A stretch of DNA of 64,000 nucleotides from Escherichia coli (GTDB lineage Bacteria; Pseudomonadota; Gammaproteobacteria; Enterobacterales; Enterobacteriaceae). The DNA is taken from the NCBI RefSeq assembly GCF_965641715.1, contig NZ_OZ282453.1; one strand, written 5' to 3'. The position numbers were made by a program. Below are positions 15,935-18,526 of the stretch, in pieces; within the stretch, counting starts at the first letter, position 1; every line of letters starts with the position of its first letter.

Positions 15935-18526
15935 TAACATCCTGTTATCAGGGCGATTTTCGCCCTGATTCTCTTATGTTCCATTTGTAATAATTCATTA
16001 TTTTTATCATTTATCCTATAGCATTCATGGCGATTATCGCTAAACTATGGCGACTTAAAATTATTTCGTCCGTTAGGGTAATGATGAGAGTAGAAAATAA
16101 TAATGTTTCTGGGCAAAACCATGACCCGGAACAGATTGATTTGATTGATTTACTGGTGCAGTTGTGGCGTGGCAAGATGACAATTATCATCTCTGTCATT
16201 GTTGCTATTGCCCTGGCTATAGGGTATCTGGCCGTTGCCAAAGAAAAGTGGACTTCCACTGCTATCGTTACTCAACCTGATGTGGGGCAAATCGCTGGTT
16301 ATACCAACGCGATGAATGTGATTTACGGTCCGGCTGTACCGAAAGTCTCCGACATTCAGGCTTCACTTATCGGACGTTACAGCACTGCATTCTCAGCATT
16401 AGCGGAAACGCTGGATAACCAGGAAGAAGCAGAAAAGCTGACCATTGAGCCTACCGTTAAAAATCAGTCATTACCTTTAGCGGTGTCTTATGTTGGTGAA
16501 ACACCTGAAGGTGCTCAGAAGCAGCTGGCGAAGTATATCCAGCAAGTTGACGACCAGGTAAACGTAGAGCTGGAAAAAGACTTGAAAGACAACATCGCGC
16601 TGCGTATGAAAAACTTGCAGGACTCTTTAAGAACTCAGGAAGTAGTCGCGCAAGAGCAGAAAGATCTGCGTATCCGTCAGATTCAGGAAGCGTTGCAGTA
16701 TGCGAATCAGGCGCAGGTGACAAAACCGCAAATTCAACAGACTGGCGAAGATATCACGCAAGATACGTTGTTCCTTTTGGGGAGCGAAGCGCTGGAGTCG
16801 ATGATTAAGCACGAGGCGACCCGTCCGTTGGTGTTCTCACCAAACTACTATCAGACACGTCAAAACCTGCTGGATATCGAAAGCTTAAAAGTTGATGATC
16901 TTGATATTCATGCTTACCGCTATGTAATGAAACCGACGTTACCTATTCGTCGCGATAGCCCGAAAAAGGCAATTACCTTGATTCTGGCGGTGCTGCTGGG
17001 CGGCATGGTTGGCGCGGGGATTGTGCTGGGGCGTAATGCTCTGCGTAATTACAACGCGAAGTAATCTTTTCGGTTTTAAAGAAAAAGGGCAGGGTGGTGA
17101 CACCTTGCCCGTTTTTTTTGCCGGATGCGACAACAACATCGCATCCGTTTACCCCGCAACTCACTGATGCCGTTTACGCAGGTTCTCAATCACCGTCGTT
17201 AAATCCAGATCCTGATCCTGCAACAACACCAGCAGGTGATACATCAAATCAGATGCCTCGTTGGTCAGTTCAAAGCGGTCATGTACCGTCGCTGCCAGTG
17301 CGGTTTCCACGCCTTCTTCGCCCACTTTCTGCGCAATGCGTTTGGTGCCGCTGGCATACAGTTTGGCGGTGTAGGAGGTTTCCGGGTCGGCAGATTTACG
17401 TTCGGCGAGCAGTTGTTCCAGTTGATAAAGGAACAGCCACTGGTGAGCGGTGTCGCCGAAGCAGCTGCTGGTGCCTTTGTGGCAGGTTGGGCCGATGGGA
17501 TTCGCCAGTACCAGTAACGTGTCGTTGTCGCAGTCCGGGGCAATACTCACCACATTGAGGAAATTGCCCGACGTTTCGCCTTTGGTCCACAGTCGCTGTT
17601 TAGTGCGGGAGAAAAAGGTGACTTTGCCGCTTTCGATGGTTTTGTCCAGAGCTTCCGGGTTCATATAGCCCAGCATTAACACTTCACCGGATACCGCGTG
17701 TTGCACAATCACCGGCATCAGTCCGTCGGTTTTTTCCCAGTCCAGTTCGCGGCGTTGTTGTTCTGTTAACATATCCTGATCTCCACGCCCTGTGTTGCCA
17801 GGTACGCTTTTAATTCACCAATATTGATAATTTGTTTGTGGAATACAGAAGCTGCCAGCGCGCCGTCAACGTCGGCATCGCGGAAGGCTTCGAGGAAGTG
17901 TTCCATGGTGCCCGCGCCACCGGAGGCAATCAGCGGGACGTGGCAAACTTCACGCACTTTTTTCAGTTGTTCGAGGTCGTAACCGTTACGCACGCCGTCC
18001 TGATTCATCATGTTGAGGACGATTTCTCCGGCACCGCGTTTTTGCACTTCCTCTACCCAGTCTAGCGTTTCCCACTGAGTGACGCGGGTGCGGCTTTCAT
18101 CGCCGGTATATTGATTCACATGATATTTACCGGTTTCAGCGTCGTACCAGGTATCAATACCGACCACAATACACTGCACGCCAAATCGATCCGCCAGGCG
18201 AGTAATTAACGTCGGGTCCGCCAGCGCAGGGGAGTTGATGGAAATTTTATCCGCGCCAAAGGAAAGAATTTTCGCGGCATCTTCCAGAGACTTAATCCCA
18301 CCCGCCACGCAGAACGGAATGTCGATCACTTCCGCCACGCGAGATACCCAGCTTTTATCTACCACACGGCCATCGCTGGAAGCTGTGATATCGTAGAACA
18401 CCAGTTCGTCTGCACCTTCCTCGGCGTAGCGTTTTGCCAGCGGCACGATATCGCCAATGATTTCATGGTTGCGAAACTGTACGCCTTTCACCACCTGACC
18501 ATCACGAACGTCGAGACATGGGATTA

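What the first reader, a model, noticed from the sequence alone, without database searches (positions are those of the whole stretch)
17083..17150. Shared bidirectional terminator plus a second REP-like palindrome between wzzB and hisI
Two convergent transcription units end within ~95 bp. One hairpin has U-rich tails on both strands and is followed by a second palindrome (GCCGGATGCGACAACAACATCGCATCCG). The second palindrome resembles a REP unit and could influence mRNA 3' end stability for the his operon.
Basis: seen in the sequence. Interest (0 to 1): 0.12.

Follow-up and report, generated by a model that had tools for sequence, protein, structure and literature searches.

The report
his–wzzB bidirectional terminator plus REP remnant
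The short gap between the O-antigen chain-length gene wzzB and the last histidine-biosynthesis gene holds one hairpin that stops transcription arriving from both sides, a site already mapped experimentally in E. coli K-12, plus a leftover fragment of a common bacterial repeat; it is ordinary and already known.

Summary
wzzB (+, stop 17062-17064) and hisIE (-, stop 17161-17163) converge on a 96-bp spacer.

Hairpin 1 (17087-17110) has a 10-bp stem flanked by AAAGAAAAA and T8, so it is terminator-like on both strands. Published 3'-end maps for K-12 place the wzzB-sense end and the his-sense end in the two U-tracts of this hairpin, 35 nt apart. At least nine other sampled enterobacterial species keep one A-tract/stem/T-tract hairpin here. 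The Salmonella his terminator was published in 1985 as 'convergently functional'.

Hairpin 2 (17122-17147) has a perfect 9-bp stem. It shares the REP head GCCGGATGCG but fails every other REP criterion: no CTAC foot, no stem mismatch, too short, and single-copy. In about 22% of E. coli genomes and in E. albertii, a 90-bp BIME sits exactly between the T-tract and hairpin 2, bounded by 10-bp direct repeats CCGGATGCGA. The window's form equals that allele minus one repeat and the BIME, so hairpin 2 is most likely a REP-derived remnant.

Hairpin 2 lies only in the his 3' UTR. A role in stabilising his mRNA is possible but untested. Verdict: already known, low interest.

The parts
17062..17064 (+). 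wzzB stop codon (TAA)
   Evidence: ORF 16027-17064. RefSeq annotates wzzB under the matching region in E. coli genomes.
17065..17116 (+). wzzB 3' UTR up to the inferred release site in the U-tract
   Evidence: The K-12 Term-seq 3' end is the 4th U and the terminator-table end is the 5th U after hairpin 1. Transferred to the window by alignment; the window has T8 and K-12 has T7.
17078..17086 (.). A-tract AAAGAAAAA, which reads as the U-tract UUUUUCUUU of the his-sense terminator
   Evidence: Sequence. The K-12 his-sense 3' end at 2097303 is the 5th U of this tract, equivalent to about window 17082.
17087..17110 (.). Hairpin 1, the shared terminator stem-loop (10 bp, 4-nt loop GTGA on +)
   Evidence: Energy is -19.3 kcal/mol in the wzzB sense and -13.9 in the his sense, where there is a 1x1 A.C internal loop. 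Listed as bidirectional terminator no. 173 in K-12.
17111..17119 (+). G + T8, the U-tract of the wzzB-sense terminator and A-tract on the his-sense strand
   Evidence: Length varies from T7 to T9 among strains.
17120..17130 (+). REP head GCCGGATGCGA. Its last 10 nt (CCGGATGCGA) form the direct repeat that bounds the BIME in other strains and marks the deletion junction here
   Evidence: The long allele has CCGGATGCGA both at the start of the first REP unit and at the start of hairpin 2. The window's spacer form equals the long form minus one copy of the repeat and the 80 nt between the two copies (90 bp in all).
17122..17147 (.). Hairpin 2, a single-copy REP-derived palindrome (perfect 9-bp stem, 8-nt loop)
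   Evidence: Energy is -15.1 (+) and -17.6 kcal/mol (his sense, 11 pairs including U.G and G.U). It sits in one place per genome (median).
17082..17160 (-). his operon 3' UTR: 13 nt, hairpin 2, GC + A8, hairpin 1, then the first Us of the tract
   Evidence: Hairpin 2 is transcribed only as part of his mRNA, or in wzzB read-through.
17161..17163 (-). hisIE stop codon (TGA on the - strand)
   Evidence: ORF 17161-17772. RefSeq annotates hisIE here.

Best explanation
Hairpin 1 with its flanking A-tract and T-tract is the shared intrinsic (hairpin plus U-tract) terminator of two convergent transcription units.

What each polymerase does:
- RNA polymerase coming from wzzB transcribes GGGCAGGGUGGUGACACCUUGCCC followed by GU8 and releases within the U-tract, at about 17115-17116.
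- Polymerase coming from the his operon transcribes hairpin 2 first, then A8, then the complementary hairpin and UUUUUCUUU. It releases at about 17082.
- The two RNAs therefore overlap by roughly 35 nt.

Hairpin 2 is not a terminator in either direction. It is followed by A8 in the his sense and by UUUACCCC in the wzzB sense. It is a single-copy, REP-derived palindrome that lies only in the his 3' UTR.

The most likely origin of hairpin 2 is as follows. The ancestral Escherichia spacer carried a BIME (two inverted REP units) between the T-tract and hairpin 2. The window's short form arose by precise deletion between two 10-bp direct repeats, CCGGATGCGA.

If hairpin 2 does anything, the most likely effect is as an extra barrier to 3'-to-5' exonucleases for his mRNA.

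Shown: the structures, the 3' ends in K-12, the single-hairpin architecture across genera, and the allele series. Inferred: transfer of the K-12 ends to this strain, the direction of change (deletion rather than insertion), and any stabilising role.

Sub-confidences: bidirectional terminator about 0.93; REP-derived remnant about 0.8; deletion rather than insertion about 0.65.
For: Structure.

In vivo 3' ends in MG1655:
- Term-seq end at 2097270 (-), averaging 72130 reads in LB at OD 0.4 and 47946 in the third sheet. This is the 4th U after hairpin 1.
- Bidirectional-terminator table row 173: overlap 2097269-2097303, 35 nt, dG -14.2, 7 A and 7 U in the flanks, detected in log and stationary phase, genes his.../wzzB/ugd.

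Comparative evidence: thirteen further loci from other species or genera have convergent hisIE and wzzB. In at least nine of them (C. werkmanii, E. cloacae and others) one hairpin with an A-run and a T-run sits just after the hisIE stop, on unrelated stem sequences, and none shows a second palindrome.

Hairpin 2 origin:
- A BIME allele is present in 1213 of 5426 genomes and in E. albertii.
- The junction falls at the 10-bp direct repeats.
- BIME alleles have diverged from one another and occur on both flanking haplotypes.
- Both BIME units pass the canonical REP pattern, while hairpin 2 does not.
- IS1397, which is REP-specific, sits in the loop of the first REP unit in two strains.
Against: - The his-sense hairpin has an A.C mismatch and was not called by the simple scan on that strand.
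- The curated Term-seq list of Adams et al. has no his-sense 3' end here in any of its three conditions.
- All 3'-end data are from K-12 (T7, slightly different hairpin 2), not from this strain.
- The source of the 306-terminator table (the preprint's ref. 47) could not be opened. I believe it is Ju et al. 2019 SEnd-seq, but that is from memory and the column names.
- Deletion polarity rests mainly on one outgroup (E. albertii) in a region known for recombination. hisIE identity does not separate short from long forms.
- Two fully compensated base pairs in one hairpin 2 allele hint that the stem may be maintained rather than being a neutral relic.
Confidence: 0.85

Rival explanations
1. Hairpin 2 is a selected, functional element of the his 3' UTR. 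It would act as a second stem-loop that blocks PNPase or RNase II once the weaker terminator hairpin is breached, working as REPs are reported to do, and not as a mere relic.
For: It lies only in the his transcript. It is more stable in the his sense (-17.6) than the terminator hairpin (-13.9). Ninety percent of stem cells are paired across 17 distinct alleles, with two fully compensated pairs. REPs are reported to act as terminators and mRNA stabilisers, and REPs between convergent genes correlate with higher expression.
Against: Both compensated pairs occur in a single allele lineage, and palindrome-templated repair can produce the same pattern without selection. The stem is degenerate in E. 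albertii and in L129, with three 5'-arm changes that are uncompensated. All one-sided transitions give G.U on the wzzB-sense strand and A.C mismatches in the his-sense RNA. The other genera sampled lack any second hairpin. No 3' end is reported at hairpin 2.
Confidence: 0.25
2. Opposite polarity: the short form, with hairpin 2 alone, is ancestral. The BIME was later inserted next to it by RAYT-type mobilisation, and hairpin 2 served as the landing hairpin.
For: REPs and BIMEs are thought to spread by a transposition-like process, and their positions vary between strains. The same junction also received an IS200-type element, whose Y1 transposase is related to the REP transposase, in two contigs. 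Short forms are the majority, about 3100 against 1213 genomes.
Against: E. albertii and the most divergent Escherichia-like alleles (L129, L112) carry the BIME. BIME alleles are mutually diverged, which indicates age. The boundary is a 10-bp direct repeat, as expected for slipped-strand deletion. No target duplication of that size is described for REP spread in the paper read.
Confidence: 0.3
3. Termination at hairpin 1 is driven mainly by head-on collisions of converging RNA polymerases paused at the hairpin, not by classical intrinsic termination.
For: The group that defined these overlapping bidirectional sites proposes collision-driven termination for the class. This site is in the table of 306.
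Against: That class is described as not resembling intrinsic terminators. This site, by contrast, has a canonical GC-rich stem with 7-8 U on each side, and the 3' ends fall in the U-tracts. The homologous Salmonella terminator was titled Rho-independent and convergently functional. It is used on its own as a strong terminator in constructs.
Confidence: 0.12
4. Hairpin 2 is a genuine REP (palindromic unit) of the E. coli family.
For: It matches the REP head exactly, GCCGGATGCG(A). Part of the 3' arm, ATCCG, is also shared. The common allele's tail CCGCTTAC is near the canonical CCGGCCTAC.
Against: It has no GTAG/CTAC foot, a perfect stem without the two-base mismatch, and 26-28 nt rather than 30-40. 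It is single-copy in genomes and is missed by a pattern that finds 51 canonical units in the same DNA set.
Confidence: 0.04

Closest known systems
Salmonella typhimurium his operon terminator (Carlomagno, Riccio & Bruni 1985, J Bacteriol 163:362; PMID 3891737)
   Same: Same position, at the end of the his operon after hisI(E). It is Rho-independent, and the title and citing papers describe it as functional in both orientations and as strong.
   Different: The paper itself is not held, and no Salmonella locus was recovered, so the sequences could not be compared. The other genera sampled use unrelated stems. Nothing is known here about a second palindrome in Salmonella.
Overlapping bidirectional terminators between convergent E. 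coli genes (table of 306; entry 173, 2097269-2097303)
   Same: This is the same site in K-12: identical hairpin 1, 35-nt overlap, 7 A and 7 U in the flanks, detected in log and stationary phase. Independent Term-seq agrees within 1 nt for the wzzB side.
   Different: The window strain has T8 rather than T7 and a slightly different hairpin 2. The class was proposed to terminate by polymerase collision, whereas this member looks like a classical intrinsic terminator.
REP / BIME elements of E. coli (y, z1, z2 palindromic units)
   Same: Hairpin 2 shares the head GCCGGATGCG and the outer stem CGGAT/ATCCG. It occupies the slot next to a true BIME in 1213 genomes and lies in a 3' UTR between convergent genes, as about 30% of such spacers with REPs do.
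   Different: It has no CTAC foot, no stem mismatch, is shorter, and is single-copy. For comparison, the window carries canonical units at 24616-24649, 24683-24711 and 61279-61312.
Short GCCGGAT...ATCCGGC palindromes at other convergent junctions, e.g. can/hpt (141972-142003)
   Same: This is a small REP-foot-like palindrome between convergent genes, with mapped 3' ends on both strands.
   Different: At can/hpt the REP-foot palindrome is itself the terminator hairpin. Here the terminator is hairpin 1, and the REP-foot palindrome is an extra element upstream in the his 3' UTR.

Membership tests
Intrinsic (Rho-independent) terminator | GC-rich stem-loop with a short loop | tested here: met
   Hairpin 1 has 10 pairs (7 G-C) and a 4-nt loop. 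Energy is -19.3 kcal/mol (+) and -13.9 (-, with one A.C mismatch).
Intrinsic (Rho-independent) terminator | U-rich tract immediately 3' of the stem | tested here: met
   The + strand reads GUUUUUUUU and the - strand reads UUUUUCUUU.
Intrinsic (Rho-independent) terminator | RNA 3' ends fall within the U-tract in vivo | tested here: met
   This uses published K-12 data only. The wzzB-sense end is at the 4th or 5th U and the his-sense end at the 5th U. It was not measured in the window's strain.
Intrinsic (Rho-independent) terminator | Termination without Rho | not testable with these tools
   Only the title of the 1985 Salmonella paper speaks to this.
Bidirectional terminator between convergent genes | A single hairpin flanked by an A-tract and a T-tract in the spacer of convergent genes | tested here: met
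   The same architecture, with unrelated stems, is seen in at least nine other sampled species where hisIE and wzzB converge.
Bidirectional terminator between convergent genes | Overlapping 3' ends from the two strands | tested here: met
   A 35-nt overlap at 2097269-2097303 in K-12.
REP (palindromic unit) | 30-40 nt imperfect palindrome with a two-base mismatch in the stem | tested here: not met
   Hairpin 2 is 26-28 nt with a perfect 9-10 bp stem. Definition taken.
REP (palindromic unit) | Conserved GTAG (CTAC on the complement) at the foot | tested here: not met
   The tails are TTTAC in the window, CTTAC in the common allele and TCAGC in the strain 2A type. Hairpin 2 is missed by the head-plus-CTAC pattern that finds 51 units in the same DNA set.
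REP (palindromic unit) | Hundreds of dispersed copies per genome | tested here: not met
   Hairpin 2 has a median of one place per genome. The 231-nt long-allele query, through its REP unit, matched a median of 4 places per genome even at megablast stringency.
REP (palindromic unit) | Consensus head GCCGGATGCG | tested here: met
   Exact 10-mer at 17120-17129. The only other exact copy in the window is the canonical y unit at 24616.
BIME | [quoted passage not shown] | tested here: not met
   Absent from the window. Present at this site in 1213 of 5426 E. coli genomes and in E. albertii.

The most novel reading that the evidence does not exclude
The few bases between the terminator's T-tract and hairpin 2 may be a recurrent landing site for elements that move through single-stranded DNA hairpins. 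A BIME (spread by the REP-associated Y1 transposase) and an IS200-type Y1-transposase element occupy the same junction in different strains. Hairpin 2 would then be a REP-like recognition hairpin kept perfect by selection or templated repair. The BIME presence/absence alleles would tune his mRNA 3'-end stability between E. coli lineages.
Probability: 0.1. Interest if true: 0.3.

Novelty: already known. Interest (0 to 1): 0.07.

Why it matters
It matters little for discovery. The terminator is a textbook bidirectional intrinsic terminator, already mapped in K-12 and described for the Salmonella his operon in 1985.

There are two modest practical points:
- Hairpin 2 should not be annotated as a REP. 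It is a REP-derived remnant that fails the family's defining features.
- The natural allele series at this one site could serve as a ready-made panel for testing what REPs do to an mRNA 3' end in a fixed genetic context. The series comprises the short form, several diverged BIME forms, IS1397-interrupted BIMEs, an IS200 insertion and a truncated hairpin 1.

Tried and rejected
- **Rfam:** an E-value search of 16500-17700 gave only sub-threshold chance hits (best 17.6 bits against a gathering score of 60), so this is no known RNA family.
- **MG1655 REP annotation:** the hisI-wzzB spacer has no REP feature. This copy of NC_000913.3 carries no REP annotation even at an obvious REP, so the absence is uninformative and was not used.
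- **Carlomagno 1985 and the SEnd-seq paper:** neither could be opened. The 1985 content is taken only from the title and citing papers. The attribution of the 306-terminator table to Ju et al. 2019 is my inference.
- **Other 3'-end datasets:** these either held no text supplements or did not mention hisI/wzzB. Searches for papers on the wzzB-hisI spacer found nothing specific.
- **Polarising short versus BIME forms by hisIE identity:** the forms are interspersed, consistent with recombination near the O-antigen locus.
- **Species scan:** it returned no Salmonella, E. fergusonii or E. marmotae loci.
- **Hairpin 2 as a second terminator:** rejected because it is followed by A8 in the his sense and by UUUACCCC in the wzzB sense.
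- **Chance:** rejected.

Full report
**What is there**

The window is E. coli DNA. A 326-aa WzzB gene on the + strand ends with TAA at 17062-17064. The hisIE gene on the - strand ends with TGA at 17161-17163. That leaves a 96-bp spacer. A 431-bp query around the spacer matches 5265 of 5426 complete E. coli genomes, and RefSeq annotates wzzB and hisIE under the match.

The spacer reads: 22 nt ending in AAAGAAAAA, then hairpin 1, then G plus T8, then GC, then hairpin 2, then 13 nt up to the hisIE stop.
- Hairpin 1 is GGGCAGGGTG-GTGA-CACCTTGCCC at 17087-17110.
- Hairpin 2 is CGGATGCGA-CAACAACA-TCGCATCCG at 17122-17147.

**Is it more than chance?**

Yes.
- The spacer folds at -41.4 kcal/mol on the + strand (z = -5.06) and -37.8 on the - strand (z = -3.68). 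None of 200 dinucleotide shuffles does as well.
- Hairpin 1 is the strongest terminator-like site in a 3.5-kb scan.
- Hairpin 2 is unique in the window, and none of 100 shuffles gave a match even with three mismatches allowed.
- Perfect short-loop palindromes of 9 bp or more are about 15-fold enriched in the window over shuffles. Most of the others look like terminators.

**Hairpin 1 is the shared terminator**

In the wzzB sense the stem has ten pairs, including one G.U (-19.3 kcal/mol), and is followed by GU8. In the his sense the same positions give 5+4 pairs around an A.C mismatch (-13.9), followed by UUUUUCUUU. The mismatch explains why the simple scan did not list the hairpin on the - strand.

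- Adams et al. 2021 list a Term-seq 3' end at 2097270 (-) in two of three conditions. The table prints 50 nt upstream, the end itself, then 10 nt downstream. On the MG1655 sequence the end is the 4th U after hairpin 1.
- It was labelled 'antisense to hisI' rather than 'primary'. It lies 51 nt from the wzzB stop, and my guess is that this falls just outside the distance window used for the 'primary' class.
[quoted passage not shown] 47. From the column names I take this to be the SEnd-seq study of Ju et al. 2019, which I could not open.
- Entry 173 of that table reads: overlap 2097269-2097303, 35 nt, plus-strand RNA AAAAAACGGGCAAGGUGUCACCACCCUGCCCUUUUU, 7 A and 7 U in the flanks, detected in log and stationary phase, affected genes his.../wzzB/ugd.
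- On the MG1655 sequence those coordinates are the 5th U on each strand.

The two transcripts therefore end in the two U-tracts of one hairpin. The window equivalents are about 17115-17116 (+) and about 17082 (-).

**Comparative support**

Thirteen further loci from other species or genera have convergent hisIE and wzzB. In at least nine of them a single hairpin sits just after the hisIE stop, with an A-run on one side and a T-run on the other, and the stems are unrelated in sequence. Examples are Citrobacter werkmanii (AAAAAAACCGGGCTTGCCCGGTTTTTTT) and Enterobacter cloacae (AAAAAAGACCGGGGAAACCCGGTCTTTTTTT). None of these loci shows a second palindrome. Conservation of the architecture without conservation of the sequence is what a functional bidirectional terminator predicts.

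[quoted passage not shown] Later papers cite it as bidirectional and use it as a strong stand-alone terminator. I could not read the paper itself.

**Hairpin 2 is REP-like but not a REP**

Ton-Hoang et al. 2012 define E. coli REPs by four features:
- 30-40 nt imperfect palindromes with a two-base stem mismatch
- a conserved GTAG at the foot (CTAC on the complement)
- three types, y, z1 and z2
- several hundred copies per genome

Both the GTAG and the mismatch are needed for TnpA_REP binding and cleavage.

Hairpin 2 shares the exact 10-nt head GCCGGATGCG and the outer stem. It fails the rest:
- It is 26-28 nt with a perfect stem.
- Its tail is TTTAC, CTTAC or TCAGC rather than CTAC.
- It occurs once per genome.
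Three of those units are elsewhere in the window.

**Where hairpin 2 comes from**

In strain 2A the spacer is 90 bp longer. The extra DNA sits exactly between the T-tract and hairpin 2 and reads GCCGGATGCGATGCTGGCGCATCTTATCCGGCCTAC, then a 17-nt linker, then GTAGGCACGATAAGCTTGCGCATCGGGC. Both units pass the REP pattern, so this is a BIME.

- The BIME allele is present in 1213 of 5426 genomes. The short form is in roughly 3100.
- Seventy-eight sequences carried the conserved hisI 3' end: 71 metagenome contigs, the window, and six of the loci fetched earlier.
  - 47 are short.
  - 27 carry the BIME, two of them with IS1397 in the loop of the first REP unit.
  - 2 carry an IS200-type element.
  - 2 are too truncated to call.
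- In the long allele, CCGGATGCGA occurs at the start of the first REP unit and again as the 5' arm of hairpin 2. The window's spacer form equals the long form minus one copy of the repeat and the 80 nt between the two copies (90 bp in all).
- E. albertii and the most divergent alleles (L129, L112) carry the BIME.
- BIME alleles differ from each other in the linker and in the second unit. One has an 11-bp internal deletion.
- Both forms occur on both flanking haplotypes.

I therefore favour loss of an old BIME by slipped-strand deletion, at about 0.65. Insertion next to a pre-existing hairpin is not excluded, and hisIE identity cannot polarise the change.

**Does hairpin 2 do anything?**

It lies inside the his 3' UTR and 6 nt beyond the wzzB-sense release site. 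It is therefore normally transcribed only as part of his mRNA.

It cannot terminate transcription, because A8 follows it in the his sense and UUUACCCC follows it in the wzzB sense.

In the his sense it is the more stable of the two hairpins, at -17.6 kcal/mol with 11 pairs. A role as an extra exonuclease barrier is plausible, in line with what is reported for REPs.

The evidence for maintenance is thin:
- Across 17 distinct alleles, 90% of stem cells pair.
- Two pairs are fully compensated (A-U to G-C and C-G to U-A), but both are in one allele lineage.
- E. albertii and L129 have three uncompensated 5'-arm changes.
- Every one-sided transition gives G.U on the wzzB-sense strand, which is an A.C mismatch in his mRNA.
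- No 3' end is reported at hairpin 2.

Palindrome-templated repair could produce the symmetry without selection.

**Verdict**

The terminator is already known and experimentally mapped. The second palindrome is a REP-derived remnant at a BIME-polymorphic site, not a REP. Novelty: already known. Interest is low.

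Noticed in passing
L002 494-640 (strain 2A); 1213 of 5426 E. coli genomes; E. albertii L007: There is a 90-bp BIME presence/absence polymorphism exactly between the terminator T-tract and hairpin 2. It is bounded by 10-bp direct repeats CCGGATGCGA. Several diverged BIME alleles exist, one with an 11-bp internal deletion (L114, L120).
   Followed up: yes
L003 about 3240-4670 (strain PAR); L141: IS1397 (an IS3-like element, annotated in RefSeq) is inserted in the loop of the first REP unit of that BIME. This fits its published specificity for palindromic units.
   Followed up: partly
L092 and L139 (metagenome contigs), between the T-tract and GCCGGATGCG: A 712-bp insertion at the same junction encodes an IS200-like Y1 transposase (Pfam Y1_Tnp, E = 7.6e-35). 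This is the transposase family related to the REP-associated transposase.
   Followed up: partly
L117 (metagenome contig): Hairpin 1 is reduced to GGGCATTGCCC by loss of its central 13 nt, while the A-tract and T-tract remain. This is either a natural weakened terminator or an assembly artefact.
   Followed up: no
Alignment A1 of hairpin 2 alleles (window 17122-17147 equivalents): All one-sided transitions in the stem, at four pair positions, give G.U on the wzzB-sense strand and therefore A.C in his mRNA. None goes the other way. This is suggestive (about 1 in 16 by chance) but unexplained.
   Followed up: partly
window 14605-14640: A perfect 16-bp palindrome, TAAGAAAAGGCCCTAATAAATTAGGGCCTTTTCTTA, lies between the convergent ugd (ends 14588, +) and an NAD-dependent epimerase gene (ends 14654, -). 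It looks like a second shared bidirectional terminator.
   Followed up: no
window 14654-15658 (- strand): An NAD-dependent epimerase gene sits in reverse orientation between ugd and wzzB. Only 277 of 5426 E. coli genomes match this stretch over at least 80% of its length, and the best matches are mostly porcine isolates. A terminator-like hairpin lies at 15947-15969, upstream of wzzB.
   Followed up: partly
window 24616-24711 and 61279-61312: Canonical REP units lie elsewhere in the window. One is a BIME-1-like pair (y unit 24616-24649, 33-nt AT-rich linker, z unit 24683-24711) upstream of the his leader. The other is a solitary y-like unit at 61279-61312. The his attenuator hairpin is at 24246-24278.
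   Followed up: partly
L004 2924-2961 (strain AR_0162): In strains where a wbdC pseudogene rather than wzzB abuts hisIE, the spacer is only 38 bp. It holds a different hairpin (CCCCCGC-CGTTGCT-GCGGGGG) with no T-tract, so the his 3' end is built differently there.
   Followed up: no
MG1655 141972-142003 (can/hpt), from published tables: A short REP-foot palindrome, GCCGGATGTGTTGCATCCGGC, between convergent can and hpt has mapped 3' ends on both strands. It is listed as bidirectional terminator no. 6, so small GCCGGAT...ATCCGGC hairpins can themselves be terminators.
   Followed up: no
NC_000913.3 as held in the E. coli genome collection: This copy of the MG1655 record carries no REP or repeat_region features, even at an obvious REP near 25.76-25.80 kb. 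Absence of a REP annotation in this collection is therefore not evidence.
   Followed up: yes
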